Below, piece by piece: positions 4,687 through 26,738 of a stretch of 64,000 nucleotides of DNA. The DNA lies in the IMG/VR virus record IMGVR_UViG_3300042922_001018; one strand, given 5' to 3'. The stretch comes from a virus (taxonomy: Duplodnaviria > Heunggongvirae > Uroviricota > Caudoviricetes). Below the pieces are notes generated by a model. That model worked only from the letters and a program-made list of their open reading frames with translations, was not told the DNA's origin and did not search any database. Made by a program: the position numbers and the translations under genes. Every line of letters begins with the position of its first letter. Position 1 is the stretch's first letter.

Positions 4687-4752
4687 CCGCGCGTCCAGTT
4701 TCAATGAGTGGCCTCGGTAAACTGAACCGAGCGCCTGAACCGGAGATTTCGC

Positions 4753-5217: not shown

Positions 5218-5264
5218 TCGAAACTTCGTTCACTCTGCGAGCACCCCTCTATTACCATGAGGGT

Positions 5265-6445: not shown

Positions 6446-6504
6446 GTGCGAACCGTACCATACTCGCGCTCACTGCGCAACTACCCCGCCGCTAACATAG
6501 GGGT

Positions 6505-10200: not shown

Positions 10201-11460
10201 TGCCGGGGAAGGCGTCCAGGCACCGTTGTTGATGCTCTGCTCGACGCGGTAACGGACTGCCTGAAGCGACGAGACCGGACCCCAGGAGAGGTTGTGCTCG
10301 TGCGGACGGGCCGAGTTCTCGGAACCGGCGAGGACCGGAGCAGGAAGCGTCTGCGTGTAGTTCACCGTGTCGGTGGACGTGGCGTTCGATACGCTCGGCG
10401 GGCAGGCGGCGACAACCGCGACCTGGCCGACGGAACCGTTCGGTACGCCTTCAATCTGGACAGGCTCGAATGCGCCGTAAGAGGTGAAGGTGACTTCGTG
10501 GTTCTCAGCGCCCGTGGTCGAGGTGACCCAACGGACGGTGTACTCCGTCGTGAACGGCCCACAGGTCACGTAGTCCCAGGTAATCTGGATACCTTCACGC
10601 ATGGAGCCATAGATGTCACCGTTGGTGGCGGAGCGCTCGACCCGGAGGTTGTTGATGGGTCCAGGGTTGTAGAGAGTCTGCTCCGGCTGCTCTTCGGGGT
10701 TGGTGAGCGTGTCACCTTCGGCCGTCGGAGTAATCCAAGTCTTGCCAGCGATGTCGGTCGGACGGGGACCGGTGAGCGGCATGGCAACCTGGGTCTCCGA
10801 GCCGTTGGCGCGAGAAATCTTCACCAGCGAAGGCTGGCTCCATTCCCACTCGTAGTCACGCCAGTAAGAGTCGCGAGTGGCGGTGGACTTCTGAGCCGCG
10901 GGGACAGTCGTGGACAGGCCCACTTCGAGACCGGAAGCGTTGTAGTGGAGGTCACGACCGGCAGAGTTCGATGCGACGAACACTGCGTCGGTCGCGAAGC
11001 CGTCCACCGAGATGGTCTTAGTGGTCGCGGCGGGGGTACCTGGCGATGTGCCGAGGTCACAGACTTCGTTGTTGAAGTACGAGACCGTGTTGCTCAGCAC
11101 TCCACCGTCGAGGGTCCAGACGCTCTTACGGCAGTCGTCACGGAATGAACCGCTGCCGCGCTGCTGGTAGACACCAGGGGACCGACCGGGTAGCTCATAG
11201 AAGATAGCCGTCTTGTCGCCTCGAAGGAAGACCTGAGACGAGTTGTTGGCGTCGAGCGACCACGCCTTGCTAGCCGTGGTGAGGTTCGCTGCGCGAGTCT
11301 GCTCGTCGGCGTACTTACCTACGAAGTTGAAGGTCGTGATGAGCACGGCGAAGATGGTCGCGCCCACAATCATGCTGCCGAACACAGCGATGATACTCAG
11401 GACGGGGTCAGTGGCCCCTCGCTCTGAGCGCAGGTGTGTGAGCAGTCTGTTCATCATCAT
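7285..11460 (-). CDS. giant pilin-anchored adhesin (~1390 aa) with ~9 Cys-paired Fn3-like repeats
   Basis: Prepilin-like leader LRSERG|ATDPVLSIIAVFG plus hydrophobic helix; repeats CPAGTxxEYRYR...WxxW...ARCxS. Confidence 0.8.
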   Translation of the reverse strand: MMMNRLLTHLRSERGATDPVLSIIAVFGSMIVGATIFAVLITTFNFVGKYADEQTRAANLTTASKAWSLDANNSSQVFLRGDKTAIFYELPGRSPGVYQQRGSGSFRDDCRKSVWTLDGGVLSNTVSYFNNEVCDLGTSPGTPAATTKTISVDGFATDAVFVASNSAGRDLHYNASGLEVGLSTTVPAAQKSTATRDSYWRDYEWEWSQPSLVKISRANGSETQVAMPLTGPRPTDIAGKTWITPTAEGDTLTNPEEQPEQTLYNPGPINNLRVERSATNGDIYGSMREGIQITWDYVTCGPFTTEYTVRWVTSTTGAENHEVTFTSYGAFEPVQIEGVPNGSVGQVAVVAACPPSVSNATSTDTVNYTQTLPAPVLAGSENSARPHEHNLSWGPVSSLQAVRYRVEQSINNGAWTPSPAISPNPKDGVTAQLTFDTGSTYGQNHRYRAIAVLPPVESNPSNIVTIQTPWPPIAAPTITGTNPTTASYQTTVSAITCPAGTSGQYQQRYRFGTSAWSAWTTWGTTRVMTTNVAEGARIQVNAQVRCAYNATQFSPTQAARNTAQWIRPIVTVPATPTVTFTDPSADADPVPANFVTTGCPAGTTPEYSYRYRLNEATSYTSFTSWSGDTSALIAILRGGRIEIEVKARCVSPYAQGPESPTNTETWIRPIPAPPGLTNLTTNDQGTAEPINNRIIHDAAVCPAGTTAEYRYRQTTPAPTGAWTTWAASPVGGPFYNVDTAWGRYYVWEAVARCISPYLASDPSPTRSTTWTTNLPLPSGNITLAAPSTTPMDIEYNVTIGGNSSCPAGTTIRYAMTGTNNALQNAGRAWFNSGWSTFETDKRSEPTRWNNLSVSHTAPKARANFYDASYVGYAVCDGPDRDASITNPLEALSTVPGPGQGLIRVNYPVVNNTATAERIRVDQGGSGNSTTLDNVFTYENCSGAGQWGESRFRYRINTTGAGNAWSGWSTWGDTAGRERYINNTRQNTTLPVLAGTSPRNLGDNRHLAVLYNVAQGHRLDVDVQHRCIDPYTQDSLNNKGPASAVEHRETVRNVENPTGMYLEQPFWSGVPNGTQRSVGIEANCSASTVGIQYQWRNDGAGGNTGVWQGWFNPNSGNGFRTGNITATWANWYGSSANYICVGVFANSGVEFRQTGGVQAEIPPAPGGVYLNVSGSNVDTWRGTVYTGTTVSTSGSWSASAGGGCPAGTNTQVDWASPTSQSASASRSSSSAGTYYSGWVTRSFGASVYCAANDNGTRGAGVGTGWQDRSVRVGANWEVPPYPGTPTGGSYDGSYMAALGGTDYGGYVVNTLRFNGSGGANANGYNNSVRIQGTVPRNGGTWTGWATQIGCFDGASSKQAQSQATNGWGSSGWFTTGATSVPTGIDRVNMGCF

Positions 11461-11495
11461 GATTGTATCACCCTGTAGGTAGGAACGCTGACGGA

Positions 11496-14400
11496 TTATC
11501 CGTATGCGCCAGCGGACCACTGGTATCCGCTGTTGGCGTACGGACCGGTGCACGTCGCGCGAGAGTTCCACTCGACGTAGCCCCAGCTACCACCCTGGTT
11601 GTTGTAGTCCCAGGCGGCACCTTCCCAGCGCCAGTTGGATGCCTTGTTCATCAGCATCCAGAAGTACGGGTCTGCGCCCCACGCACCGTTGTAGCAGTTG
11701 ATGCCGTGGTTGAAGTGACGGTAGCCTGCACGGCCACTCCACTTGCCACCAGCGCTGACGCCACGGACGTAGAAGCCATTGCTGCCGCCCAGTGTGGACT
11801 GGTTCGTAGCTGCACCGCGAGCGCCCGTGAGGTCGTTGTAGCACGTCGTCTGCACGTAGGTCTTCTGAGCGCGACCTTCTTCAGCCTGCGTACCCCGGCT
11901 CCGGTGGTTGCGGTCCCAGCCGGTCCAACCGCTGTCCATGTTACCCGGCTCCTTCGTCATGGAGCCTTCCCAGTTGACACGGTTGAACGAGCTGTAGTCG
12001 GTGACGGTGCCCGCGGGGCAGGCGTTGCCGTTGACAGTCCAGTTCGAGTTCAGGGAACCATCGTAGCCGATGTGGACGGTCGGGCCAGCGGGCATGTCGC
12101 GCATGCGAGCCTGCGCGGCATGTTCGACAACCGGGCCAGCGGCGCTGGAATACTGGTTGATGCATCGCGTAGCGACCTGCACGTCGAAGTAGTCACCGTG
12201 GTACCACGGGTTGCCGCCGAGCGTCTGAGCGCCGGGGTTGCCACCCCATGCACTCCATGCGCGAGTCCAGCCGCCTTCGTTCCGGTCAGACCAGACGCCG
12301 CTCTTCGTGCGGTACTGGTACTGCGGGCTGAGGCCGGTACCACAGGTGACATCGGTGAACTGGAAGGTCGCCCAGGTGGAGGTGTTCCAGGAGACGGTCG
12401 GCGAAGCGGTCGTCGCGGTAACCGGCGTGGTGAACGACACGACCGTGTACTGGTAGGTCGGGCCGGTCGAGTAGTCAGAGACGCAGCGGGCCTGAAGCTG
12501 CGCACGGGCAACGTCACCGTTCGACACTGCGTCGAAGGTGAAGTTCGGCAGGGTCGCTGCGAATGCGCCCCATGCAGCCCACGAATCGTTCATTCCGGTG
12601 CGCGAGGAGACGCGTGCGGTGGTCGTCGCGGGGCAGTTCGTGGGGTTGGAGTACGAGGCCACGGGCGGAGCACCAGCGATGACAGTCTTGCCACCGACGG
12701 TCGGCTGAGCCGTGATTTCGTAGATGTGCCAGTCGCCGGTCGATGCAGCGCTCGGGCCGACGAGGGTTGCATCGGTGCCCGAGACGCAACGCGCCTCAAC
12801 GTCGAACTGAACGCGCTCGCCCTGGTTGATGGGCGAGTTGGCGCCGTTGGCGGCTCCCCAGCCAGTCCAGTTGGACCATCCACCAGCGTTCATCTGGTAG
12901 CGGCTACGCGACTCCCAGGTGGTGCCGGTTGCACAGCCCGCCTTGACCCAGGTCGGTGCGCCGTTGGCGGCGTACGTGACGGTGGGCGCGGAGGGGATGG
13001 ACGTGACGGGGCGGACACGCTCGACAACCGACTCGTCCGAAGAGGGGCCGTAGAGCTGCGTGCCGTTACCGAGGCAGTTCGCGGTGGCAACGATACGGAC
13101 CTTGCCACCTTCGGGAACGGTCACGTTCCGGGTGAACTGGTTCGGCGAGATGTTCGTGTAGGTCTCACGAGTGACATCGTTGACCTGAGCGAGCCAGGTA
13201 TAGCGAGGGGTCGTGCCAGCGGGGCAGGTAACCTGACCGATGGTGAACTGGTTGAAGCCGCTCGCGAGCGTCAGGAGAGGAGCGTCGGGCTTCGTCGTGA
13301 CTGGCACGTTGAGGACCACGATGTCGGACTCCGGCGAACCCGGTCCCTGTACATACGGGGAAACGTAGCGCGACTGGCCCTGGCCTTCGACCTTAGAACC
13401 CTGGTCTACGGCGCGAGTGTCGATGCGGTTGGTCGTCCACGGACCGTAAGTCCATGTGTTGCCGCCGTTGACACGGACGCGGTAGCGGTACTCGGCCGTG
13501 AGGCCAGCGGTCGTAGCGGCAGTGGAGACGGTCGTGGTGACGGTGTTGGTTCCACCGATGGACACGGTCGGCTTGGTCGGCGCCGAAGTGATGGGGCGGT
13601 CGAGCTGAGCGCTAGCAGTTGCAGTCTGGTTACCGACAGCGAACTCAGAGGCACAGCGTGCACGCACCTGGAACTCGATACGAGCGCCTTCAAGAGCCTT
13701 CGTGTCGTGGGAGAGCACACCATCGGCCCAGGTCGTCCACGTGGTCCAGGTGCCCTCGTCAAGGCGCGTACGGTGCTGGTACTGAGGCGTGGTGCCGGTA
13801 CCGCAAGATACGGTGGTCCAGGAAGCGACGCCGGTCGGCGCGATGGTCAGCGTCGGGGCACCGGGAGGCGGCAGAATCGGGTGGGTGTACTCCGCGATTT
13901 CGGAAGCCGCGGTCGGGTCGGTGACGCCCATCGAGGTACGGCAACGCGCCATGGCCTGAACAGAAATCTTCTGGCCCTGGTTGATGTTCTGGTTGAAGGA
14001 CTTGCCTGCGGCCCATTCGCTCCATGCGGTCCACTCGCCGTTACCCATCTTGTAGCGGTAGCGGTACTCCGTCGAACCACCGTACTGGCAGTAGACATTC
14101 GAGAAGGTGGAGGTGGCGGTGTTTCCGGACGCGGTGATGTTCACGCTCGGCGGAATCGGAGGCGCGACAGAGGTGTAGTCACCACCGGGGGTCAGGTACT
14201 CGATGGAGTTCGGGTTCAGCTCCCACAGCGCGAGCGCGTCGAGGTTGTCATCAGAGTAGACCCATACCGGACGTCCCTGAGCGTCGAGACCGGTGAACAC
14301 ACCAGCGCCGGAGGGAACGAACTGGACACGGGCCTTCGCGGTAACGCCGAGAGCGTTGTCGGACTTACCTTCCATCTCGGCCGTGACTACACCGGATTCC

Positions 14401-14795
14401 GGGTTGACGGCGAAGAAGGTGACGTGGCTGTTCGCGCCGAGTTCTGGCGTGTTGCCGAACTGCGAGGTGGCCTCAGTCAGCCCTTCAGCATCCATGTACT
14501 GCCATTCCCGCGGGAAGTCAGAGTTCATCTGTCCGAGGACGTTGGATGCGAGCTGGTTGATGCTGGAGCGAACCTGCGCCTGCTGCGCGGTCGTGTAGTC
14601 GAGAGTCTGGCGGAAGAAGAACCACGACATCGAGACGATGAGCAGAGTGGTGACGACGAGCACCAGGATGAGGGCGTTCGAGAGCGCGCCTCGTTCGCTG
14701 TTACGTTCCAGGATGGTGCGACGACGTTCTACGAACGCGCGGATACGAGCGAGCGGGTTTCCCTGCTCGCTCATCGGCGACTTAGCGCTGCTCAT
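11496..14795 (-). CDS. large pilin-anchored adhesin (1099 aa) with ~9 Cys-paired Fn3-like repeats
   Basis: Leader RNSERG|ALSNALILVLVV; same repeat unit as the neighbouring gene. Confidence 0.8.
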   Translation of the reverse strand: MSSAKSPMSEQGNPLARIRAFVERRRTILERNSERGALSNALILVLVVTTLLIVSMSWFFFRQTLDYTTAQQAQVRSSINQLASNVLGQMNSDFPREWQYMDAEGLTEATSQFGNTPELGANSHVTFFAVNPESGVVTAEMEGKSDNALGVTAKARVQFVPSGAGVFTGLDAQGRPVWVYSDDNLDALALWELNPNSIEYLTPGGDYTSVAPPIPPSVNITASGNTATSTFSNVYCQYGGSTEYRYRYKMGNGEWTAWSEWAAGKSFNQNINQGQKISVQAMARCRTSMGVTDPTAASEIAEYTHPILPPPGAPTLTIAPTGVASWTTVSCGTGTTPQYQHRTRLDEGTWTTWTTWADGVLSHDTKALEGARIEFQVRARCASEFAVGNQTATASAQLDRPITSAPTKPTVSIGGTNTVTTTVSTAATTAGLTAEYRYRVRVNGGNTWTYGPWTTNRIDTRAVDQGSKVEGQGQSRYVSPYVQGPGSPESDIVVLNVPVTTKPDAPLLTLASGFNQFTIGQVTCPAGTTPRYTWLAQVNDVTRETYTNISPNQFTRNVTVPEGGKVRIVATANCLGNGTQLYGPSSDESVVERVRPVTSIPSAPTVTYAANGAPTWVKAGCATGTTWESRSRYQMNAGGWSNWTGWGAANGANSPINQGERVQFDVEARCVSGTDATLVGPSAASTGDWHIYEITAQPTVGGKTVIAGAPPVASYSNPTNCPATTTARVSSRTGMNDSWAAWGAFAATLPNFTFDAVSNGDVARAQLQARCVSDYSTGPTYQYTVVSFTTPVTATTASPTVSWNTSTWATFQFTDVTCGTGLSPQYQYRTKSGVWSDRNEGGWTRAWSAWGGNPGAQTLGGNPWYHGDYFDVQVATRCINQYSSAAGPVVEHAAQARMRDMPAGPTVHIGYDGSLNSNWTVNGNACPAGTVTDYSSFNRVNWEGSMTKEPGNMDSGWTGWDRNHRSRGTQAEEGRAQKTYVQTTCYNDLTGARGAATNQSTLGGSNGFYVRGVSAGGKWSGRAGYRHFNHGINCYNGAWGADPYFWMLMNKASNWRWEGAAWDYNNQGGSWGYVEWNSRATCTGPYANSGYQWSAGAYG

Positions 14796-16546
14796 TCTTC
14801 CCCTCCGCGCTGGGACGTGACGCCAGCCAGAACCTTCATCAGAGTCACATCCTTGACGAGCGCAGATTCGATGATGTCACCGTCCGCACTCCACACCCTA
14901 ATGTTAGCAGACCCACACTCGTTCAAGCGGTCGAGAGCTGGAACTTCGAGGCGCGCCCAGTACCAGTCGCGGCCAGAGGTGTCCTGCGACAGGTTGATGT
15001 TGTTCGTCGAGAGTGAACCGATGCCCAGGTTGGTCGAGCAGAACACGCCGATTTTCAGGTTCCGTGGTGCGGTGCTGCCGGTGTACTGGTAGGAGACGCG
15101 GAGGACGGTGTCCTTAATCAGGGCGGGGTCAATCTTGGCGATTTCGACGCTCGACGCGGTCGTCGTGGCACTGTTACGTCCGGTGGCAACCAGGCTGATG
15201 TCCGATGCCGTAATGGTCTTGGCCGGGCCACCTGTCTGGGTGACACGGATGATGAACCGACCGACAGCGGTTGGGGTCGCGATGGTGTGGTTCAACGCGA
15301 GAGGTACGCTCTCGGTGCCGATACCTGCGAGGTCGATGGTCTGGAGGATGGTTGCCGTGCCGCTAGTGCTCGGGGCGTACTCGACGGTGACGGTACCAGT
15401 TGCTCCAGCCACCTGAGCGGTAGCCTGAAGGCGCATGCCAACGGTGATGGCGTTGATGCCGGTCATCTGCGGGGACGCGATGTTGTAGCGGAGCCACTTG
15501 CCCGTGTTTCCGCCGTTGAACGTGACGACGCCGGTTGCCTGGTCGTAGGCAGCGTTGGTGGAAGTCTCGAACGTTGCCGGGGTCTTCAGGATGTTCTCGA
15601 CGGTCTTGATGAGAGTCACATCGTCTACTGCGACGCGGCAACCGCTACAGTTCGTCACACGAATGGCGAGACGATACTGACCGGCAGCGGCGGCGGTGGA
15701 CTCGCTCGCGATGGTGGACCATTCACGGCGGTTCGTGGAAGGACCGAACGTAGGAGCGTTCGTACCCGCCTGGAGGCCCACCTGGACGAGCGCGCTACCG
15801 GATACGACCCTGGCGAAGCCGGAGGCCTTCAGGCGGTCTGCTACGGCCGCAGCGATGGGCTGGCTGTACACGACAGTGTCGCCCTGGATGATGAGTTCCT
15901 GCGCACCTGTAGAACGAGGCGTGGACGTTCCGGTCACTGTGGCGACGGCGCCTCCGGCTTCGGTGCTCCAGTTCGTCTGGGCGGCGGCACCTTCGAAGTC
16001 ACCCGCTGTTGCGAGGTTGGTCGAAAGGTTCTCGTTGTTGATGTCGCGAACGGACACGGTGATGCCGCTCGGGAGGTTCGGACCGATGTCCGAAGGCGTT
16101 CCGACCACGGTGGAGGACAGCGAGAGGCAGCCCTTCGGGGTCTTGCCCGCTGAGTCGAGCGTGCCACAGGACATCGTCGGACGGTTCGCAAGGATGCCAC
16201 GAGGCGCGGTCACTCGCAGCGTGAAACCGTTCACCGACGGGTCGAAGAAGACCTCACGGGTGACCGGAACAGTACGTCCCGAAACCGTGACGTTGAACGT
16301 CGTGGGAGGCTGGTCCGTAATCTTGTTGTACGGGGTCTTCTCGAAGTTGACGATTTCCTGTTCGAGACGGGTTGTCAGGTCGGAGTTACTCTGAGCGAGA
16401 GAGCTGCCCGCGAGCATCGTTGTGATGGCGCCACCGATAATGACCATCGTGACCATCGTGAGGATGGATGCAGCAATGAGAGCAACGGGCGAGGCATCGC
16501 CTCGGTCGCTTCGAAGGTGGGAAAGCAGTCTACGCATCACGCTCAT
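14792..16546 (-). CDS. minor pilin-like protein with probable carbohydrate-binding (jelly-roll) domains
   Basis: Leader LRSDRG|DASPVALIAASIL; NLATAGDFE...W...VDDVTL resembles CBM4/9-type modules. Confidence 0.7.
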   Translation of the reverse strand: MSVMRRLLSHLRSDRGDASPVALIAASILTMVTMVIIGGAITTMLAGSSLAQSNSDLTTRLEQEIVNFEKTPYNKITDQPPTTFNVTVSGRTVPVTREVFFDPSVNGFTLRVTAPRGILANRPTMSCGTLDSAGKTPKGCLSLSSTVVGTPSDIGPNLPSGITVSVRDINNENLSTNLATAGDFEGAAAQTNWSTEAGGAVATVTGTSTPRSTGAQELIIQGDTVVYSQPIAAAVADRLKASGFARVVSGSALVQVGLQAGTNAPTFGPSTNRREWSTIASESTAAAAGQYRLAIRVTNCSGCRVAVDDVTLIKTVENILKTPATFETSTNAAYDQATGVVTFNGGNTGKWLRYNIASPQMTGINAITVGMRLQATAQVAGATGTVTVEYAPSTSGTATILQTIDLAGIGTESVPLALNHTIATPTAVGRFIIRVTQTGGPAKTITASDISLVATGRNSATTTASSVEIAKIDPALIKDTVLRVSYQYTGSTAPRNLKIGVFCSTNLGIGSLSTNNINLSQDTSGRDWYWARLEVPALDRLNECGSANIRVWSADGDIIESALVKDVTLMKVLAGVTSQRGGEE

Positions 16547-16626: not shown

Positions 16627-17172
16627 TTACGACTTGACGTTGTTGATGTCAGTGAGCAGTTGGCTTGCGCTGCGGCCGGAGGGGAGAACTGCTCTCAACC
16701 GGTCGTTCTCGTGGAGGATTTCGCTGCTCTCAGACGTACGGATGAACACTTCACCGTTACCCGAGTGGCTCACAGCAGTCCATCCGTTCGCGAATCCGCG
16801 GACAAGAAGAGTCGTGCCTTCCGTCGGGGTGAAAGCGATAGAAGAGTTCATAAGAGCCTTCTGCGCTGTCGTAGGGGTACCGAGGTTCGGTCCGAACACC
16901 AGCGTAGCATAGTTGCCGTCGTTCTCGGCCATGTACGCAGCTTGCGCCGTCGCGACGCGGTCAAGGTCGGCCTTCGCGTTCAGGTTGTGCGCGTTCCCGA
17001 TGAAGCCGCTGATGGCGAAGGAACCGCCCACGAGCAGGATGAGCGTGATAGCGATACCCGCGATGATGAGGATGGGGTCGGTGGCACCGCGCTCCTTGCG
17101 CAGGCGTGCGATTTCGGCCTTGCGGGCCTTCAGGTGTTCAAGCATGGAAATCTTTCGGGTTGGGAGTGTCAT
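16627..17172 (-). CDS. type IV pilin-like protein (copy 7)
   Basis: ERG|ATDPILIIAGIAITLILLVGG...AKADLDRVATAQAAY; ATGA overlap with the upstream pilin. Confidence 0.88.
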   Translation of the reverse strand: MTLPTRKISMLEHLKARKAEIARLRKERGATDPILIIAGIAITLILLVGGSFAISGFIGNAHNLNAKADLDRVATAQAAYMAENDGNYATLVFGPNLGTPTTAQKALMNSSIAFTPTEGTTLLVRGFANGWTAVSHSGNGEVFIRTSESSEILHENDRLRAVLPSGRSASQLLTDINNVKS

Positions 17173-17699
17173 GAGCGGATGTCCGCAATGTCGGTCATCA
17201 CGGCGTTCCAGGTGATACCTGATGGCATCAGTACGCCAGCGGCTTCGTTCGTAGCGGGCGTAGTCGCTGGAATAGCGACGATGTTGGACGACACTGACGT
17301 ACGCAGAAACACAGTTCCCGAGGCGGAGAGCGTTACTGCCACCCAGCCGGAACTGGAGACACGAGCGCGCGAGGTACTCCCAGCGGTCGGCGTGAATCCA
17401 ATGGACGAGTTCTGAAGCTGGGTGTTCTGACCCGATGCATTCGGCCCAACCGCAAGGACCGCGTAACGGTCGTTCTCGGCGAGGTACGCAGCTTGCGCAG
17501 TCGCCATGCGGTCAAGGTCACCCTTGGCGTTCAAGTCGTTTGCATTGCCGATGAAACCGGAGATGGCGAAGGAACCGCCCACGAGCAGGATGAGCGTGAT
17601 AGCGATACCCGCGATGATGAGGATGGGGTCGGTTGCACCGCGCTCTTCACACAGGCGCGCGATTTCGGCCTTGCGAGCCTTCAGCTTGTCAAGCATCAT
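17169..17699 (-). CDS. type IV pilin-like protein (copy 6)
   Basis: Same conserved leader and helix; divergent C-terminus. Confidence 0.88.
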   Translation of the reverse strand: MMLDKLKARKAEIARLCEERGATDPILIIAGIAITLILLVGGSFAISGFIGNANDLNAKGDLDRMATAQAAYLAENDRYAVLAVGPNASGQNTQLQNSSIGFTPTAGSTSRARVSSSGWVAVTLSASGTVFLRTSVSSNIVAIPATTPATNEAAGVLMPSGITWNAVMTDIADIRS

Positions 17700-18202
17700 G
17701 ACCTCACGTTGTTGATGTCGGAGAGAAGCTGGGTAGCCGTAAGACCATCAGGAAGTACGACGTTTCCTCTGTCGGCCGATTCGTAAATCTGGCTCTGCGC
17801 AGAGCTACGGATGAATACCTTGCCAGAAGCAGAGTGTGTCACCGCCACCCAGCCGCTAGCGGTGAATCGGACGATGAACGTGTTCCCGGAAGTTGGCCGG
17901 AAGCCGATGGAAGAGTTCTCCAGGGCCAGGACGGGTGTGTTGATGTTCGGCCCAGAGACGTAGGTGGCGTAGGTGTCGTTCTCGGCGAGGTACGCAGCCT
18001 GGGCGGTCGCGACACGGTCGAGGTCACCCTTCGCGTTCAGGTCATTCGCGTTCGCAATGAAACCGCTGATAGCAAAGGAACCACCGACGAGGAGGATAAG
18101 GGTGATGGCGATACCCGCGATGATGAGGATGGGGTCAGTGGCGCCGCGCTCCTCACGCAGGCGCGCGATTTCGGCCTTCTTGGCCTTCAGTGCGTCAAGC
18201 AT
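17696..18202 (-). CDS. type IV pilin-like protein (copy 5)
   Basis: Same conserved leader and helix; divergent C-terminus. Confidence 0.88.
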   Translation of the reverse strand: MLDALKAKKAEIARLREERGATDPILIIAGIAITLILLVGGSFAISGFIANANDLNAKGDLDRVATAQAAYLAENDTYATYVSGPNINTPVLALENSSIGFRPTSGNTFIVRFTASGWVAVTHSASGKVFIRSSAQSQIYESADRGNVVLPDGLTATQLLSDINNVRS

Positions 18203-18235
18203 GTTGAGAGAATCTTTCAGGTTGGGGGGAGAGAA

Positions 18236-18274
18236 CCGAAGCCCTGGTCTAAGGGTATCAGACCAGGGCTTCGG
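18236..18274 (-). terminator. hairpin after pilin copy 4
   Basis: ccgaagccctggtct / agaccagggcttcgg. Confidence 0.7.
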
Positions 18275-18298
18275 GACCGCGCGTTAGCGCGGAGCGGT

Positions 18299-18826
18299 TC
18301 AGAGCGCGTTGATGGCGGTGAGAACTGCGGTGGCGAACGTGGTGTTCGCCGCGGCGTTGCCAGCGTTCGGCAGCACCAGCGTGCCCGGAAGGGCCGCGAT
18401 GTTGTTGCCCTGCGAGCCGACCTCGATGATGGCCGTGCCGGACGAGGTGCGCGCGTAGCGGGTGCCCGACGCGGACTCGGTGACAGCGACCCATCCGCCG
18501 GAAGCGGTCGGGGTGGTCAGGATGGTGAGCGAGTTGCCCGCGGTCGGCGTGAAGCCGATGGACGAGCTGCCCAGCGTCGCAACGTTGTTCGAGTAGGAGT
18601 CGCGCTCGGCGAGGAACGCGGCCTGAGCGGTCGCGACGCGGTCGAGGTCACCCTTGGCGTTCAGGTTGTTCGCGTTCGCGATGAAGCCGGAGATGGCGAA
18701 GGAGCCACCAACGAGCAGGATGAGGGTAATCGCGATACCCGCGATGATGAGGATGGGGTCAGTTGCTCCCCGCTCCTCGCGGAGGCGTGCGATTTCGGCC
18801 TTCTTGGCCTTCAGCTTGTCAAGCAT
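18299..18826 (-). CDS. type IV pilin-like protein (copy 4)
   Basis: Start MLDKLKAKK at 18826 with AAGGA RBS; conserved N-terminus. Confidence 0.9.
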   Translation of the reverse strand: MLDKLKAKKAEIARLREERGATDPILIIAGIAITLILLVGGSFAISGFIANANNLNAKGDLDRVATAQAAFLAERDSYSNNVATLGSSSIGFTPTAGNSLTILTTPTASGGWVAVTESASGTRYARTSSGTAIIEVGSQGNNIAALPGTLVLPNAGNAAANTTFATAVLTAINAL

Positions 18827-18872
18827 GCGTGGATGGTTCCTTTGGGTTGGTGGAGAGGAAGTCTCTCCATAA

Positions 18873-18896
18873 AGTAAATGGGCAGGCAGGTTCCAC
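18873..18896 (-). promoter_or_regulatory. conserved pilin upstream motif (variant copy)
   Basis: GTGGAAC-N3-CCTG-N2-CATTTACT. Confidence 0.7.
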
Positions 18897-18936
18897 AAAG
18901 AGAGGTTTCTTGTGTCCCCTCTTCGGGGGACAACGA

Positions 18937-18970
18937 CGAATCCCCCGCCCAGCGAAGGGCGGGGGATTCG
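18937..18970 (-). terminator. hairpin after pilin copy 3
   Basis: cgaatcccccgccc-agcgaa-gggcgggggattcg. Confidence 0.75.
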
Positions 18971-19004
18971 GTTTCCGCTAGAGTGTCGGTCCGTTGTCCG
19001 TGGG

Positions 19005-19520
19005 TTACGGGATGGCGACAACCGCGTCGCGGACCTGCGTCGCGGTGATGCCGGTCGGGAGCGTCAGCGTGCCACCGACGTAGGCGACGGTCGCGGTGGC
19101 ACCGGTACCGGTCACGTTGGCGTCGAGGACGGTCGTGGAAGCGGAGGTACGGACGTACTTCTGTCCGGAGGCCGACTTCGTGACGGCGACCCAGCCGGTG
19201 CTGCCGCTGGCGAGGATGGTGATGGGGTTGCCCGCGGTCGGCGTGAAGCCGATGGACGAGCTGCCCAGCGTGGTGACGCTGTTCGAGTAGGTGTCACGCT
19301 CGGCGAGGAACGCGGCCTGGGCGGTCGCGATGCGGTCGAGGTCACCCTTCGCGTTCAGGTTGTTCGCGTTCGCGATGAAGCCGCTGATGGCGAACGAGCC
19401 ACCCACGAGCAGGATGAGGGTGATGGCGATACCCGCGATGATGAGGATGGGGTCCGTTGCACCGCGCTCTTCGCGGAGGCGTGCGATTTCGGCCTTCTTG
19501 GCCTTCAGCTTGTCAAGCAT
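19005..19520 (-). CDS. type IV pilin-like protein (copy 3)
   Basis: Start MLDKLKAKK at 19520; conserved N-terminus. Confidence 0.9.
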   Translation of the reverse strand: MLDKLKAKKAEIARLREERGATDPILIIAGIAITLILLVGGSFAISGFIANANNLNAKGDLDRIATAQAAFLAERDTYSNSVTTLGSSSIGFTPTAGNPITILASGSTGWVAVTKSASGQKYVRTSASTTVLDANVTGTGATATVAYVGGTLTLPTGITATQVRDAVVAIP

Positions 19521-19566
19521 GGATGGTTCCTTAGGTTGGTCGGGTGGAGAGCTTGTCCCTCCACCT

Positions 19567-19590
19567 AGTAAATGTACAGGTGTGTTCCAC
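19567..19590 (-). promoter_or_regulatory. conserved pilin upstream motif
   Basis: GTGGAACACACCTGTACATTTACT. Confidence 0.75.
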
Positions 19591-19638
19591 AAAAAGTGAG
19601 CGCGCTTGTCCCCTCTTTGGGGGACAAGCCTTAGACAC

Positions 19639-19675
19639 AACGAATCCCCGACCCAGCGAAGGGTCGGGGATTCGT
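19639..19675 (-). terminator. hairpin after pilin copy 2
   Basis: aacgaatccccgaccc-agcgaa-gggtcggggattcgtt. Confidence 0.75.
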
Positions 19676-19713
19676 TGAACCGATGGTGGTCGGTGTGGCC
19701 TTGGCCGTGAGGC

Positions 19714-20208
19714 TTACAGCGCGCCGAACGCGGTGGCCACGTTCGCTGCGTTGATGCCGGTCGGCAGGGTGCCGGGCACGGACTCGGTGATGGTCGTCGA
19801 GGCCGAGGTACGGACGTACTTCGTACCCGAAGCCGACTTGGTCATGGCGACCCAGCCGCTCGGCGACGCGAAGAGGCGGATGGGGTTGCCCGCGGTCGGC
19901 GTGAAGCCGATGGACGAACCGCTCAGGGCGGTCAGCGCGGTGGCCTGGGTGTAGGTGCCGACACCTTCACCCGCGTAGGAGTCACGCTCGGCGAGGAACG
20001 CGGCCTGGGCGGTCGCGATGCGGTCGAGGTCACCCTTCGCGTTCAGGTTGTTCGCGTTCGCGATGAAGCCGCTGATGGCGAAGGAGCCACCGACGAGCAG
20101 GATGAGCGTGATGGCGATACCCGCGATGATGAGGATGGGGTCGGTTGCACCGCGCTCTTCGCGGAGGCGTGCGATTTCGGCCTTCTTGGCCTTCAGCTTG
20201 TCAAGCAT
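19714..20208 (-). CDS. type IV pilin-like protein (copy 2)
   Basis: Start MLDKLKAKK at 20208; conserved N-terminus. Confidence 0.9.
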   Translation of the reverse strand: MLDKLKAKKAEIARLREERGATDPILIIAGIAITLILLVGGSFAISGFIANANNLNAKGDLDRIATAQAAFLAERDSYAGEGVGTYTQATALTALSGSSIGFTPTAGNPIRLFASPSGWVAMTKSASGTKYVRTSASTTITESVPGTLPTGINAANVATAFGAL

Positions 20209-20256
20209 GTGTGTGGTTCCTTTGTAGGTTGGTGTGGAGAGCTTGTCCCTCCACCT

Positions 20257-20280
20257 AGTAAATGTACAGGTGTGTTCCAC
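20257..20280 (-). promoter_or_regulatory. conserved pilin upstream motif
   Basis: GTGGAACACACCTGTACATTTACT, identical to the 19567 copy. Confidence 0.75.
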
Positions 20281-20318
20281 AAAATGTGAACGAGGTGTAA
20301 CAAGACGATTGCATAATG

Positions 20319-20362
20319 CACAAGGAAGGCTCCCCAGCCGAAGCCAGGGAGCCTTCCTTGTG
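20319..20362 (-). terminator. hairpin after pilin copy 1
   Basis: cacaaggaaggctccc / gggagccttccttgtg. Confidence 0.75.
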
Positions 20363-20377
20363 GTGCGACGCTGCTAC

Positions 20378-20935
20378 TTAGCCAGCGGTGCGGATGTCAG
20401 TGACGATGGCCTGGACTGCGGCCAGGTCGATGCCCGTCGGGTACGTCAGAGCCGGGGAGATGGTGGTTCCCGATGCTCCAGCCGAGGCGATGGTGGTGCC
20501 GGTGGAGCTGCGTACGAAGACTTCGCCCGAGTTCGAGCGAGTCACAGCGACCCAACCCGAGTTGTTGGTGCCCACGACGACCTTGGTGCTGTTGCCAGCG
20601 GTCGGCGTGAAGCCGATGGAAGAAGTCTGGAGCTGGGTGTTGGCCTGGACGCCCGCGGTGGCGGAGTCTGCGTCCACGTTCGGTCCTACGACGAGGACTC
20701 CGTAGCCGTCCTTCTCGGCGAGGAATGCGGCCTGGGCAGTCGCGATGCGGTCGAGGTCACCCTTCGCGTTGAGGTTGTTCGCGTTCGCGATGAAGCCGGA
20801 GATGGCGAAGGAGCCACCAACGAGCAGGATGAGGGTAATGGCGATACCCGCGATGATGAGGATGGGGTCCGTTGCACCCCGCTCATCACGCAGACGCGCG
20901 ATTTCGGCCTTCTTGGCCTTCAGCTTGTCAAGCAT
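20378..20935 (-). CDS. type IV pilin-like protein (copy 1)
   Basis: MLDKLKAKKAEIARLRDERG|ATDPILIIAG... Confidence 0.9.
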   Translation of the reverse strand: MLDKLKAKKAEIARLRDERGATDPILIIAGIAITLILLVGGSFAISGFIANANNLNAKGDLDRIATAQAAFLAEKDGYGVLVVGPNVDADSATAGVQANTQLQTSSIGFTPTAGNSTKVVVGTNNSGWVAVTRSNSGEVFVRSSTGTTIASAGASGTTISPALTYPTGIDLAAVQAIVTDIRTAG

Positions 20936-20991
20936 GAGTGTAGGTTCTTCCTTGGGTTGGGTATAGCAGAAAGGGCGCTGTGCCCTCCACT

Positions 20992-21015
20992 AGTAAATGT
21001 ACAGGTCAGTTCCAC
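20992..21015 (-). promoter_or_regulatory. conserved pilin upstream motif
   Basis: GTGGAACTGACCTGTACATTTACT. Confidence 0.75.
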
Positions 21016-21055: not shown

Positions 21056-21850
21056 TTAGAAGATGACGCCCAGTTCCTCGGGTGTGGGTGCGTACATCTG
21101 GCCGAAGTACGGGATGGCGATGACGGCAATGACGGTCGCCAACGCCAGGAAGATGCCGAAGGGGACGCCTGTGTCTCCACCCGCGTTCTTGCGGATGCTC
21201 TTGAACAGCGCGCGCAGCAAGGTCCAGACGGTGCTGGTAAGGAAGGCGAGGAAGAGCCACGCGACGACGGCCAGTGCGCCCACGAGCCAGACAGCTCCCA
21301 TGTCACTCGGATTGTCCGGCGAGATGATGGGCGTACCGTACGCAATGCCGAGGGAACCCACCCAGAACGCCAGCGATGGCGCCAGCTTCACATCCCCCAT
21401 GCCCATCTGCTTCGCGAACAGGAACGAGAGGACGAGGAACACTACGCCGACGGCAAGTGCAATGGCCGCGCCGACGAGGAGGGAGATGACCCAGTGTTCC
21501 GTCTCGTACATGAGAGAGAAGGGGAGCACGACGAGCGAGAAGACGGCCGTGTAGCCCGTCAAGACGTTCGGCAGCGTGCGGTAGTAGTAGTCGGTCGCGG
21601 CGAATAGCGCCAGCAGTCCGAAGAGACCTGCGATAGCCGGAATGAGCGTGTACGCCCCGGTCAGGAACGCGGCCAGAGCTGCGGCGAGACCTGCTACTGT
21701 GCCCATGAGGGGCAGGTTGATGACGTGCTCCGGGTCACGAGGCTTGACGGCGTAGCGTCCAGCGAACACCGTGTGGAGCCAGGCAAACACGGCAGCAGCC
21801 ACAACGGCGGCAAGGAGTATCCAGTCGAACTCAGCAGTCATGACCATCAT
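21056..21850 (-). CDS. pilD: prepilin peptidase (A24 family), apparently without the Zn/methylase domain
   Basis: Multi-TM; first Asp in ATDYYYRTLPN; GMGDVKL; VPFGIFL; no CxxC pairs. Confidence 0.88.
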   Translation of the reverse strand: MMVMTAEFDWILLAAVVAAAVFAWLHTVFAGRYAVKPRDPEHVINLPLMGTVAGLAAALAAFLTGAYTLIPAIAGLFGLLALFAATDYYYRTLPNVLTGYTAVFSLVVLPFSLMYETEHWVISLLVGAAIALAVGVVFLVLSFLFAKQMGMGDVKLAPSLAFWVGSLGIAYGTPIISPDNPSDMGAVWLVGALAVVAWLFLAFLTSTVWTLLRALFKSIRKNAGGDTGVPFGIFLALATVIAVIAIPYFGQMYAPTPEELGVIF

Positions 21851-25313: not shown

Positions 25314-26738
25314 TCATACTTCCGTCAAACCAAGGAACATATCGTAAATTGGCAGGTACGTGGACACGATGACCAGGACCATGATGAGACCCACGGCGCC
25401 GTTCGCGATAGGCTGGAGAGCCGTGGTGAGGTTCTCCGTGCGCTTGTGCGCTTCACGTCGGTAGAAGTCGGTGAGGTTCGCGAGCGCCTTGATTTCAGAA
25501 CCGGAGTCGAAACCGTTGCGCATGATGAAGCCAGCGGACGGCGGGATGAGGTAGCCGTCGGCGACGCCTGCGAAGTCGGAAGTACCGTTGTCCATGCGGC
25601 GGATGTGCGCGAGAAGGTGGTACTTGTACGCGGCGTTCGAGGAGGCTTCCGCAGCCGTCTTCAGTGCCTCGCGGTCGGACATACCGACTTCGAGGAGACC
25701 TGACAGGATGGAGAACACCTGGACGAGACGCTGCGACTGGAGCACCTTACCGAGGATGGGCACCTTCACGCTCATCCGGCCCAGCTTCATGCGAAGCCGC
25801 TCGTTGTAACGTCCCCAGAACTTGTAGTAGATGAACCACGAGATGCCCGAGACGATGGCGATAGCACCGACCCAGATGAGGCCCGTTCCGAGGTCCATGA
25901 CGAACTGAGACAGCGGCGGAAGCGGCTTGCCGAGGGACTCGAACATGTCCGCGAACACCGGCAGAACGAACAGGATGACCGCGTAGAGGAACAGGATGAT
26001 GACCGTGAAGAGGATGATGGGCTGCATGGTCGCGGACTTGATTTTCTGCTTCAAGTCCTGGCCTTCCAGCATGATTTCCGCGCCCTTCTTCAGGTTCACG
26101 GCCTCCGCACCGGACTGGGCACCAACGTGCAGAAGGTCCGCCACGATGCGAGGGAAAATCTTCTCCTCCTCGCGCATAGCGGCGGAGAACGACTTCTGAC
26201 CAGACGCGACAAGCTGGTACATGCGGGCGTAGGCGTTGCCCAGCTCGGTCTTCTTGTACTGCTCTGCCAGCGTCGCGAGCGGCCGTGTCTCACCACGGGC
26301 CGTTTCGAGCATTAGAGCGAGGATGCGGAGGGACTCCGCTACCTCAACCGGCTTGACGTTCTTGTCGAACTCCAGCCATTGCGGGCGGCGGGAAACCTTC
26401 TCCTTGACGGGACGCGCAGCCTTCTCGATGAGTTCGCGGAGAATCTTGTCCTGCTGCGCCTTCTGCGAGGCTTCGCGAGCTTCCAGCTTCTCGCGGTTCT
26501 TCTCCGAGGTCTTGCGCTGCTTCTCCAGACCGGCGCGTTCGCGAGCGAGCTGAGCCTCGGTCTGGACCTTCGGCTGCTTGGCAGCTTCGGTGTCGCGCTT
26601 GCCCTGTTCCTTCTGGTTTCGGGCGCGCTCCTTCTCCATCCGAGCCTGCTCTTTTGCGAACTCCTTGTCGCGCTTCGCCTGCTCCTTAGGGGACAGGTCG
26701 GAAACGACTCCGGGCGGGGTGTCCGGGTTAAGCGTCAT
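25314..26738 (-). CDS. pilC: PilC/GspF-family pilus platform protein
   Basis: Two T2SSF repeats; IKSATMQP-TM-VLPVFADMF..LP.LS; KVPILG; C-terminal LQP...TYLPIY. Confidence 0.9.
   Translation of the reverse strand: MTLNPDTPPGVVSDLSPKEQAKRDKEFAKEQARMEKERARNQKEQGKRDTEAAKQPKVQTEAQLARERAGLEKQRKTSEKNREKLEAREASQKAQQDKILRELIEKAARPVKEKVSRRPQWLEFDKNVKPVEVAESLRILALMLETARGETRPLATLAEQYKKTELGNAYARMYQLVASGQKSFSAAMREEEKIFPRIVADLLHVGAQSGAEAVNLKKGAEIMLEGQDLKQKIKSATMQPIILFTVIILFLYAVILFVLPVFADMFESLGKPLPPLSQFVMDLGTGLIWVGAIAIVSGISWFIYYKFWGRYNERLRMKLGRMSVKVPILGKVLQSQRLVQVFSILSGLLEVGMSDREALKTAAEASSNAAYKYHLLAHIRRMDNGTSDFAGVADGYLIPPSAGFIMRNGFDSGSEIKALANLTDFYRREAHKRTENLTTALQPIANGAVGLIMVLVIVSTYLPIYDMFLGLTEV

What the first reader, a model, noticed from the sequence alone, without database searches (positions are those of the whole stretch)
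16627..20935. Seven tandem pilins with a constant N-terminus and variable heads
Seen: seven same-strand genes share ~75 near-identical N-terminal residues (and long stretches of DNA identity) plus an SSIGFTPT motif, then diverge. All are full-length ORFs, unlike silent Neisseria pilS cassettes. Inference: an interchangeable pilin repertoire (mixed fibres, or receptor/antigen switching). The shared 5' block is a ready substrate for recombination that would swap heads or change copy number.
Basis: partly seen in the sequence, partly recalled or inferred. Interest (0 to 1): 0.8.

Follow-up and report, generated by a model that had tools for sequence, protein, structure and literature searches.

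The report
Seven tandem pilin genes on megaplasmid
A giant plasmid-like element of a soil or leaf actinobacterium carries seven intact, side-by-side genes for the building blocks of a retractable hair-like fibre; all share the same stem but have different outer surfaces, and their sequences show the fronts have been swapped by recombination, so this is a larger, newly seen example of a known way to vary a cell-surface fibre.

Summary
Seven intact minus-strand genes (16627-20935) encode 164-185-aa proteins. Their first ~78 residues are 89-100% identical; the rest is about 35-65% identical.

They are real type IV pilins of a family with no Pfam model:
- The AlphaFold model has pLDDT 94 and matches Thermus PilA4 best (Z 11.2).
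- An A24 prepilin peptidase, a PilC-like platform, PilB-like and PilT-like ATPases and three giant pilin-like proteins lie in the same locus.

Four genes are self-contained cassettes with a conserved upstream box, a 5' hairpin and a 17-20-bp terminator hairpin. Three are translationally coupled and run into the giant minor-pilin genes.

The array is not fixed in relatives:
- One complete metagenomic locus has a single pilin between the peptidase and the minor pilins.
- Other loci have at least 2-3, in a different order.
- Some loci hold five tandem long-headed forms.
- Cultured Curtobacterium megaplasmids carry 14-25 family matches.

The head tree and the 5'-block tree conflict (AU p 0.0005-0.001), so the genes are mosaics made by recombination.

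No expression or fibre-composition data could be obtained, so mixed fibres versus switching stays untested. The nearest precedents are Haloferax PilA1-6 and Streptococcus sanguinis PilE1/PilE2. I rate it a new variant of a known kind, of moderate interest. This scan holds notes on this same stretch only, none on other DNA.

The parts
20378..20935 (-). pil1, 185-aa prepilin; first gene after the peptidase; own upstream box and terminator
19714..20208 (-). pil2, 164-aa prepilin; autonomous cassette; its head type is shared with at least 8 other contigs
19005..19520 (-). pil3, 171-aa prepilin; autonomous cassette; its head type is shared with L004, L003 and P0001; this is the one modelled
18299..18826 (-). 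pil4, 175-aa prepilin; autonomous cassette with a weaker match to the upstream box; followed by a 17-bp hairpin
17696..18202 (-). pil5, 168-aa prepilin; no upstream box; its stop overlaps the pil6 start
17169..17696 (-). pil6, 175-aa prepilin, translationally coupled to pil5 and pil7
16627..17145 (-). pil7, 172-aa prepilin (an alternative start at 17172 gives 181 aa); only a weak structure follows before the 584-aa gene
20936..21015 (-). upstream box (GTGGAAC ... CATTTAC), leader hairpin and AAGGA ribosome site of pil1; equivalent stretches lie at 20209-20290 (pil2), 19521-19600 (pil3) and 18827-18905 (pil4)
   Evidence: (family D4)
20319..20362 (-). 20-bp terminator-like hairpin after pil1
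19604..19677 (-). two strong hairpins after pil2 (19638-19677 and 19604-19629)
18937..18970 (-). hairpin after pil3; a paralogue of the pil2 hairpin, with compensatory base changes
18236..18274 (-). 17-bp hairpin after pil4, at the boundary between the autonomous cassettes and the coupled pil5-7 block
21056..21850 (-). A24 prepilin peptidase (GxGD motif present; no methyltransferase region detected)
14792..16546 (-). 584-aa protein with a prepilin-type N-terminus (minor pilin)
11496..14795 (-). 1099-aa protein with a prepilin-type N-terminus (giant modular minor pilin)
7285..11460 (-). 1391-aa protein with a prepilin-type N-terminus of the same ATDP type (giant modular minor pilin)
25314..26738 (-). 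PilC/GspF-like platform protein (two T2SSF domains)
1353..2510 (+). PilB/GspE-like extension ATPase
2587..4125 (+). PilT-like retraction ATPase (261 bits to the PilT/PilU family model; cut-off 319)

Best explanation
The seven genes are intact paralogous subunits (prepilins) of one type IVa-like, probably retractile pilus. The pilus is encoded on a ~450-kb plasmid-like element of a Microbacteriaceae-type actinobacterium.

Shown:
- Each protein has a 20-residue basic leader ending ...ERG, then an invariant hydrophobic helix.
- The model is the classic pilin 'lollipop': a long N-terminal helix plus a five-stranded sheet.
- The peptidase, platform, extension ATPase, retraction-type ATPase and three giant pilin-like proteins lie in the same locus.
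- Array size, content and order differ between related elements.
- The constant front and the variable head have conflicting phylogenies.

Inferred mechanism:
- The constant front (leader plus helix) is what the peptidase, the membrane and the fibre core must recognise. Any head carried on it can therefore be fed into the same machine.
- The variable loop after the helix and the C-terminal third form the exposed fibre surface.
- The array grew by tandem duplication of a ~690-bp promoter-gene-terminator cassette.
- The 83-98% identical 5' blocks then allow homologous recombination, which homogenises fronts, reshuffles heads and changes copy number over evolutionary time.
- Four genes with their own promoter-like box and terminator can be expressed independently. 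Three are made with the minor-pilin operon.
- The likely result is fibres that are heteropolymeric, or of alternative composition, with different surface properties (adhesion partner, or escape from pilus-targeting phages). This would be as in Haloferax volcanii PilA1-6 and Streptococcus sanguinis PilE1/PilE2.
For: - Pilin identity: the AF2 model has pLDDT 94.2, with a helix at 24-75 and five strands. The best structural matches are all type IV pilins: 6xxd PilA4 at Z 11.2 over 117 aa, 4noa at Z 8.8, others at Z 5-7.5. The nearest ESM Atlas clusters are actinobacterial N_methyl pilins.
- Machinery: one search finds Peptidase_A24, T2SSF, two T2SSE proteins, and the PilB/GspE-like, PilT-like and PilC/GspF-like assignments.
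- Prepilin-type N-termini on the three large downstream proteins.
- Family-wide invariance of the first 29 mature residues, and nearly invariant R16, R19 and G20-P24 in 71 sequences.
- Cassette architecture: searches show the upstream box and 5' hairpin. One search shows terminator hairpins with z -5.7 to -8.5.
- Array variation: L010 has the peptidase, one pilin and the three minor pilins. L005 and L007 have the peptidase plus at least 3 pilins. L008 has a pil3-type pilin, then a pil2-type, then the 584-aa homologue. L004 has a pil3-type pilin, then the 584-aa homologue.
- Curtobacterium plasmids hold 25 and 14 profile matches, including tandem sets of 3-4 next to PilC and the ATPases.
- Mosaicism: the pil2-type head clade has support 100/99. 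The 5'-block DNA rejects that clade, p-AU 0.0012. The heads reject pil2+pil3 as sisters (p 0.0005) and pil1-4 as a clade (p 1e-8). Yet pil2 and pil3 are 97.9% identical over 234 nt at the 5' end, with a 102-nt exact tract.
- Synonymous divergence among pil1-4 is 0.07-0.25 in the 5' block against 0.46-0.99 in the heads.
- Precedents: PMC4371748 (six Haloferax pilins with one H-domain, each able to build pili); PMC6916266 and PMC10628169 (heteropolymeric PilE1/PilE2 fibre).
Against: - There are no expression, read-level or protein data, so nothing shows that more than one of the seven is made or assembled.
- The cleavage site is inferred. The mature end lacks the bacterial Phe1/Glu5 signature, and Pfam N_methyl does not match.
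- Synonymous divergence in the 5' block is also lower than in the heads between elements. Part of the 5' similarity could therefore reflect codon-level constraint, or poor head alignment, rather than conversion.
- The clades tested by AU were chosen after seeing the trees, and the 5'-block tree itself is poorly resolved.
- pil5-7 lack an own promoter-like box and may be low-abundance subunits.
- PilM/N/O-type components were not identified.
Confidence: 0.6

Rival explanations
1. There is one major pilin and six minor pilins. Only one gene (for example pil1 or pil2, which have the best promoter-like sites) supplies the fibre. The others, especially the coupled pil5-7, are low-abundance subunits that prime assembly or sit at the tip with the three giant pilins.
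For: - pil5-7 have no upstream box and are translationally coupled into the minor-pilin operon, behind a 17-bp hairpin.
- Type IVa systems usually need several minor pilins (established knowledge; PMC6916266).
- Only pil2 reaches the sigma-70-type consensus threshold.
Against: - A complete related locus has just one small pilin plus the three large ones (L010).
- In L008 and L004 a box-bearing or major-type pilin directly precedes the 584-aa gene. pil5-7 equivalents are therefore dispensable.
- All seven keep the identical helix. Minor pilins normally diverge there, as the three large ones do here.
Confidence: 0.2
2. The array is gene-dosage amplification or neutral duplication debris. It simply raises pilin supply, or is a by-product of unequal crossing-over, and the head differences have no functional meaning.
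For: - The tandem ~690-bp period includes the promoter and the terminator.
- Copy number varies among relatives.
Against: - Heads are only about 35-65% identical, yet all seven frames are intact and keep the scaffold residues.
- Head dN/dS is roughly 0.4-0.9, with saturated dS.
- The pil2-type and pil3-type heads are each conserved across several separate contigs. This indicates that distinct heads are maintained.
Confidence: 0.08
3. The pilus is a mating or recipient-recognition pilus of a Gram-positive conjugative megaplasmid. The alternative pilins, together with the giant minor pilins, set which cells can be contacted. This would do by gene array plus recombination what the IncI shufflon does for PilV.
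For: - The closest relatives of the machinery and the pilins are on 545-608-kb Curtobacterium plasmids.
- In both annotated plasmids an FtsK/SpoIIIE-domain gene sits next to PilC.
- Plasmid type IV pili with variable adhesins are known to set conjugation specificity (PMC9045228, PMC5430464).
- Unchecked notes of this scan report transfer-type genes elsewhere on the element.
Against: - No transfer gene lies in the locus within this window.
- PLSDB types the Curtobacterium plasmids as non-mobilizable.
- There are no inverted-repeat shufflon sites and no recombinase in the array.
- The variable parts here are major-type subunits, not a tip adhesin.
- An orphan cassette also sits in a chromosomal-looking Microbacterium contig.
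Confidence: 0.12

Closest known systems
Haloferax volcanii adhesion pilins PilA1-PilA6 (Esquivel et al. 2013, as reviewed in PMC4371748)
   Same: Both have several full-length pilins with an almost identical hydrophobic N-terminal domain and different heads, all served by one machine. In Haloferax each pilin can build a pilus alone and gives different adhesion or microcolony behaviour, and subsets are expressed in different conditions.
   Different: The Haloferax system is archaeal (PibD peptidase, no PilT) and its genes are not one tandem array. Here there are seven bacterial T4a-like genes in one 4.3-kb array on a plasmid-like element, with a cassette architecture and a recombination signature. 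No functional data exist here.
Streptococcus sanguinis type IV pilus: tandem major pilins PilE1/PilE2 plus three minor pilins, two of them large and modular (PMC6916266, PMC6497953, PMC10628169, PMC9934059)
   Same: Both are monoderm T4a-type pili with long leader peptides and tandem, highly similar major pilins. The S. sanguinis fibre is a proven heteropolymer, and exactly three minor pilins include bulky modular ones. A PilT-type ATPase is present in both.
   Different: S. sanguinis has two major pilins, not seven, with a canonical class III signal and a PilD; its locus is chromosomal. Here the mature end is non-canonical (A-T-D-P..., no Phe1 or Glu5), the peptidase shows no methyltransferase region, and the minor pilins are far larger (584-1391 aa).
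Neisseria pilE/pilS antigenic variation
   Same: In both, a conserved 5' region and variable 3' regions allow homologous recombination that changes the exposed part of the pilin.
   Different: The pilS copies are promoterless, 5'-truncated silent cassettes that donate to a single expression locus. Here all seven copies are complete, and four have their own promoter-like box and terminator.
IncI1/IncI2 plasmid thin pilus with the PilV shufflon (PMC5430464, PMC9045228)
   Same: Both are plasmid-borne type IV pili in which one constant N-terminal part is combined with several alternative C-terminal parts.
   Different: The shufflon is a site-specific inversion system (Rci recombinase, inverted sfx sites) acting on a minor tip pilin of a T4b pilus in Enterobacteria. 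Here there are no inversion sites and no recombinase. The genes are separate and the system is T4a-like in an actinobacterium.
Multi-archaellin and multi-Flp tandem loci (own knowledge, e.g. Halobacterium and Methanococcus archaellin genes, flp1-3 of Haemophilus ducreyi; review PMC10117864 not read in detail)
   Same: These are also tandem paralogous type IV filament subunits with conserved N-termini.
   Different: They belong to different filament classes (archaellum, Tad), have fewer copies as a rule, and show no PilT-type machine.

Membership tests
Type IV pilin (type IV filament subunit) | Class III signal: a short basic leader ending in Gly at -1, followed directly by a ~20-residue hydrophobic stretch | tested here: met
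   The leader of 20 residues ends ...E-R-G, then comes an invariant hydrophobic segment, in all seven genes. Cleavage itself is inferred.
Type IV pilin (type IV filament subunit) | Bacterial N-terminal signature (Phe/Met at +1, Glu at +5; Pfam PF07963 N_methyl) | tested here: not met
   The mature end reads A-T-D-P-I. There is no PF07963 match at E<=1 and only a weak NCBIfam PilA match. Asp at +3 might substitute for Glu5 (inference).
Type IV pilin (type IV filament subunit) | Lollipop fold: a long N-terminal helix packed on an antiparallel sheet | tested here: met
   AF2 pLDDT 94.2 with a helix at 24-75 and five strands. Top structural matches are all pilins, with Z up to 11.2.
Type IV pilin (type IV filament subunit) | Genetic linkage to a prepilin peptidase, an extension ATPase and a platform protein | tested here: met
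Type IV pilin (type IV filament subunit) | Polymerises into a surface filament | not testable with these tools
   Needs microscopy or mass spectrometry of sheared fibres.
Type IVa pilus system (as opposed to Tad/T4c or T4b) | PilT-type retraction ATPase and a single two-domain PilC platform | tested here: met
   The PilT/PilU family model scores 261 bits, below its 319-bit cut-off but by far the best hit. PilC has two T2SSF stretches.
Type IVa pilus system (as opposed to Tad/T4c or T4b) | Bifunctional PilD with an N-methyltransferase region | tested here: not met
   Only PF01478 is matched, at residues 76-209 of 264, and there is no Cys in the N-terminal part shown.
Type IVa pilus system (as opposed to Tad/T4c or T4b) | PilM/PilN/PilO alignment subcomplex | tested here: inconclusive
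   No family match for the small ORFs at 120-1356 and 4165-7140; divergent forms are not excluded.
Neisseria-type pilE/pilS silent-cassette system | Promoterless, 5'-truncated donor copies and a single expression locus | tested here: not met
   All seven have a start codon, leader and full length. Four have promoter-like boxes and terminators.
Shufflon (IncI PilV) | Inverted recombination sites flanking alternative 3' segments, plus an Rci-type recombinase | tested here: not met
   The only inverted repeats are terminator hairpins. All genes are co-oriented. No integrase or recombinase family turned up among the neighbouring ORFs scanned.
Heteropolymeric or multi-major-pilin type IV pili (S. 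sanguinis, H. volcanii type) | Two or more full-length pilins sharing a near-identical N-terminal helix, encoded with one machine | tested here: met
Heteropolymeric or multi-major-pilin type IV pili (S. sanguinis, H. volcanii type) | Several pilins found in fibres, or each able to support piliation alone | not testable with these tools
   No expression or proteomic data were reachable.

The most novel reading that the evidence does not exclude
The array, with the three giant modular pilins, is a recombination-driven 'wardrobe' of surface-exposed subunits for a retractile mating or contact pilus of giant Gram-positive plasmids. It would set or broaden which cells the plasmid's host can seize. 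That would be an actinobacterial, array-based counterpart of the IncI shufflon and a first case of a type IV pilus serving conjugation in a monoderm.
Probability: 0.12. Interest if true: 0.8.

Novelty: new variant of a known kind. Interest (0 to 1): 0.55.

Why it matters
Type IV pili in Actinobacteria are known almost only as Tad pili, plus the zoospore pili of Actinoplanes and a predicted system in Rubrobacter (PMC6916266, PMC8325347).

This locus is a T4a-like, PilT-bearing system on giant Microbacteriaceae plasmids. Its pilin family escapes Pfam and is rare: 315 cluster representatives among 1.84 billion.

A seven-gene array whose fronts and heads have separate histories is a natural experiment. 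It shows how a filament keeps an invariant assembly interface while its exposed surface diversifies. It also extends the idea of multi-pilin or heteropolymeric fibres beyond Streptococcus sanguinis and haloarchaea.

Cultured Curtobacterium strains carry related arrays, so the question can be tested.

If the pilus serves plasmid transfer, it would bear on how megaplasmids spread in Gram-positive soil and leaf bacteria.

Tried and rejected
Read-level tests for deletions or chimeras, and any expression test, were therefore impossible.
- The first genome-contig scan used leader-peptide patterns and confirmed nothing. The second found one locus. Viral contigs gave nothing and the phage collection gave no match, so a phage origin is not supported.
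- Pfam gave no family for the seven pilins, for the three giant proteins, or for six long-headed relatives.
- The plain dS contrast as proof of gene conversion was set aside. The 5' block also has lower dS than the heads between elements, so it was replaced by tree-incongruence tests.
- A shufflon-like inversion system was rejected. A Neisseria-type silent-cassette system was rejected.
- The rice-phyllosphere paper that came up for Curtobacterium, megaplasmid and pili says nothing about this system.
- The WhiG/sigma-28 control known for other actinobacterial pili (PMC8325347) was considered for the upstream box. I did not pursue it and ran no test for it.
- Complex prediction was not used: filament subunits are a poor case for it by the tool's own guidance.

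Full report
**1. What is there**

Listing ORFs over 14-24 kb and re-anchoring the starts on the shared leader gives seven complete minus-strand genes. They lie exactly in the reported span. In transcription order:
- pil1 20378-20935
- pil2 19714-20208
- pil3 19005-19520
- pil4 18299-18826
- pil5 17696-18202
- pil6 17169-17696
- pil7 16627-17145

The proteins are 164-185 aa long. In the alignment almost every column of the first ~78 residues is invariant. That front consists of a 20-residue basic leader ending E-R-G, then a hydrophobic helix that starts A-T-D-P-I-L. Whole-protein identity to pil1 is 56-70%.

At the DNA level the first 234 nt are 83-98% identical. Exact shared tracts run from 29 to 102 nt. 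The repeat finder recovers a seven-copy 300-nt family with a period of 506-727 nt.

The SSIGFTPT motif is exact in five genes and differs by one residue in pil5 and pil7.

One qualification: the 'heads' keep a common scaffold. They vary mostly in the loop after the long helix and in the C-terminal third.

**2. Are they pilins?**

Pfam finds nothing, not even the N_methyl motif. NCBIfam gives only weak hits to Myxococcus PilA (E 3.5e-6 to 0.04). Three other lines of evidence identify them as pilins.

- **Predicted fold.** An AlphaFold model of pil3, built with 71 family sequences, is confident (mean pLDDT 94.2). It has a leader helix, a 52-residue helix (24-75), five strands and a short C-terminal helix.
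- **Structural matches.** Foldseek's top hits are type IV pilins. VIA-align gives Thermus thermophilus PilA4 (6xxd) at Z 11.2 and rmsd 3.0 over 117 residues, and Pseudomonas PilE (4noa) at Z 8.8. Gonococcal, PAK, Myxococcus and Dichelobacter pilins score Z 5-7.5.
- **ESM Atlas.** The Atlas places the protein next to actinobacterial clusters that carry N_methyl.

The neighbourhood supplies the machine:
- an A24 prepilin peptidase directly upstream, 21056-21850
- a PilC/GspF-like platform, 25314-26738
- a PilB/GspE-like ATPase, 1353-2510
- a PilT-like ATPase, 2587-4125, scoring 261 bits to the PilT/PilU model

Directly downstream of pil7 lie three large ORFs of 584, 1099 and 1391 aa. Each begins with a prepilin-type leader, R-G, and a hydrophobic stretch. 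They look like giant modular minor pilins.

The system is thus T4a-like and probably retractile. It is not a Tad system.

It departs from the bacterial canon in two ways:
- The inferred mature end has no Phe1 or Glu5.
- The peptidase shows only the protease domain.

**3. Transcription architecture (inferred from sequence)**

pil1-4 are each preceded by a conserved stretch. It contains an invariant GTGGAAC ... CATTTAC box, a short stem-loop with some compensatory changes, and an AAGGA ribosome site. For pil2 it scores as TTCACA-N18-TACATT in the sigma-70 scan.

Each of pil1-4 is followed by a perfect hairpin of 17-20 bp. The z-scores against shuffles are -5.7 to -8.5. The hairpins after pil2 and pil3 are paralogous and differ by compensatory changes.

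pil5, pil6 and pil7 have no such box. Their stops and starts overlap, and only a weak structure separates pil7 from the 584-aa gene.

The locus therefore reads as four autonomous ~690-bp cassettes, followed by three pilins co-transcribed with the minor pilins.

In the window the box occurs only before these pilins. The same box also precedes family members in three unrelated contigs: L003, L007 and L008.

**4. Where it lives**

No genome is held for the window. The protein database places the window's pilins on a 450,372-bp contig.

The closest relatives of the ATPase (59-60% identity) and of the pilins (44-46%) in the plasmid collection are three Curtobacterium megaplasmids of 545-608 kb. Phage collections give nothing.

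The element is therefore best described as a giant Microbacteriaceae plasmid-like replicon. Other notes of this scan say the same (unchecked here except through).

**5. Comparison of arrays**

Metagenome and MAG contigs gave 15 related loci. They were mapped with the window's proteins.

| Locus | Content |
|---|---|
| L010 (complete) | peptidase, one pilin, homologues of the 584-, 1099- and 1391-aa genes |
| L005, L007 | peptidase, then at least three pilins before the contig ends |
| L008 | pil3-type pilin, pil2-type pilin, then the 584-aa homologue |
| L004 | pil3-type pilin directly before the 584-aa homologue |
| L012 | five tandem, translationally coupled pilins of 378-402 aa with the same front |
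| L011 | at least three long-headed forms of the same kind |
| L006 | a mix of short and long forms |

The order in L008 (pil3-type then pil2-type) is the reverse of the order in the window.

In cultured strains, a profile of the family finds 25 matches on plasmid pS16 and 14 on plasmid D40. These include tandem sets of three to four next to PilC, the peptidase and the two ATPases. All are annotated 'hypothetical protein'.

Two further family members, P0031 and P0036, are recorded on a contig of the same length as the window's. They are not in the window and group with the L006 type. The element probably has a second pilin locus.

The array is thus clearly not invariant. pil5-7 equivalents are not a required part of the system.

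**6. Constant front: constraint, conversion, or both?**

The first 29 mature residues are identical in nearly all family members on separate contigs, long-headed ones included. The constancy is therefore first of all a family-wide assembly constraint.

Synonymous divergence among pil1-4 is 0.07-0.25 in the front against 0.46-0.99 in the heads. However, the front is also less diverged than the heads between elements. This contrast alone does not prove conversion.

The trees give a clearer signal:
- **Head tree.** pil2 sits in a clade with heads from eight other contigs (support 100/99). pil3 sits in another clade with L004, L003 and P0001 (95/77).
- **5'-block DNA.** pil2 and pil3 are each other's nearest sequences (97.9% identity).
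- **AU tests.** The 5' data reject the pil2-head clade (p-AU 0.0012) and, marginally, the pil3-head clade (p 0.038). The head data reject pil2+pil3 as sisters (p 0.0005) and pil1-4 as a clade (p 1e-8).

The tested groups were chosen after seeing the trees, and the 168-nt block resolves poorly, so the p-values are indicative. Even so, the fronts and heads have different histories: the genes are mosaics.

pil1+pil6 and pil5+pil7 pair with each other in the head tree and have no sampled orthologue. This suggests duplications within this lineage.

The identity profile of the cassettes shows a sharp fall at about +230 nt, a spike at the SSIGFTPT codons, and renewed similarity in the 3' hairpin of pil2 and pil3.

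**7. Interpretation**

The best-supported reading has four parts:
- One pilus machine is served by a family of interchangeable subunits.
- The invariant leader plus helix is the interface for the peptidase, the membrane and the fibre core.
- The exposed loop and the C-terminal region diversify.
- The array grows, shrinks and is reshuffled by duplication of whole cassettes and by recombination in the near-identical 5' blocks.

Nothing here shows whether several subunits are co-assembled (as S. sanguinis PilE1/PilE2; PMC6916266, PMC10628169), used under different conditions (as Haloferax PilA1-6; PMC4371748), or mostly idle.

The main rival is one major pilin plus accessory minor pilins. It is weakened by L010, L008 and L004 and by the identical helices, but it remains possible for pil5-7.

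A role in plasmid transfer is suggested only by the plasmid location and by an FtsK/SpoIIIE-domain gene beside PilC in both annotated Curtobacterium plasmids. The IncI shufflon offers a functional analogy (PMC5430464, PMC9045228), but its defining features are absent.

**8. Novelty and score**

Multi-pilin loci with shared N-termini are known, so this is not a new kind of system. Four things are new:
- the family itself: no Pfam model, all relatives 'hypothetical', and only 315 representatives at E<=0.001 among 1.84 billion
- its setting on giant actinobacterial plasmids, with a PilT-type machine
- the size and cassette organisation of the array
- the direct sequence evidence for front/head mosaicism

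I rate it a new variant of a known kind, with interest about 0.55.

Noticed in passing
window 7285-16546 (-): Three very large proteins (1391, 1099 and 584 aa) directly follow the array. Each has a prepilin-type leader and hydrophobic N-terminus, and none has a Pfam family. They are conserved in order in L004, L008 and L010 at 44-90% identity. They are probably giant modular minor pilins or adhesins.
   Followed up: partly
window 20936-21015, 20209-20290, 19521-19600, 18827-18905 (-); L003 4939-5007, L007 2077-2145, L008 547-619: An invariant box GTGGAAC-N5-CTG-N2-CATTTAC, followed by a short stem-loop with some compensatory changes, precedes pilin genes in unrelated contigs. In the window it occurs nowhere else. 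It may be the site of a dedicated regulator or sigma factor.
   Followed up: partly
L003 4939-5514 (uncultured Microbacterium MAG contig CAYZEL010000118.1): A single pilin cassette (box, leader, pil3-type head) sits among housekeeping-looking genes (MscL-like, GalU-like, an acetyltransferase). No pilus machinery lies within 7 kb. It is either an orphan cassette on a chromosome or a binning or assembly artefact.
   Followed up: no
L012 7534-13376; L011 5098-8701; L013; L015: Arrays of up to five translationally coupled pilins of 378-417 aa. They carry the same invariant front and the pilin fold region, plus an extra ~200-aa C-terminal part with no Pfam family. The representative search also finds family members up to 862 aa.
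   Followed up: partly
window 4165-7140 (+): Four small ORFs with lipoprotein-like signal sequences lie between the PilT-like ATPase and the giant pilin gene. Three of them are paralogous (196, 197 and 211 aa). A 154-aa membrane protein is also there. None has a family match; they could be the missing assembly or cell-wall-crossing parts.
   Followed up: no
window 18937-18970 and 19638-19677 (-): The terminator hairpins after pil3 and pil2 are copies of one another. They differ by paired (compensatory) substitutions, which argues that the stem is under selection.
   Followed up: partly
proteins P0031 and P0036: Two further family members with different leaders are recorded on a contig of the same length (450,372 bp) but are not in this window. 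They group with the L006-type locus, so the element probably has a second pilin cluster.
   Followed up: partly
Curtobacterium plasmids NZ_CP126255.1 and NZ_CP126274.1 (L001, L018): These plasmids hold 25 and 14 profile matches to the pilin family, spread over several clusters. In both, an FtsK/SpoIIIE-domain gene is the divergent neighbour of PilC and a ParB-domain gene follows the ATPases. All the pilins are annotated as hypothetical.
   Followed up: partly
window 23612-25270 (-): A 552-aa protein with four DUF4379 treble-clef zinc-finger repeats lies between PilC and the peptidase region. A homologue keeps the same position in L005.
   Followed up: no
window 38635-40964 (-): A dATP/dGTP diphosphohydrolase N-terminal domain protein sits next to a UvrD-type helicase, with a C-5 cytosine methylase at 43272-44237. 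This is DNA-metabolism cargo typical of large mobile elements.
   Followed up: no
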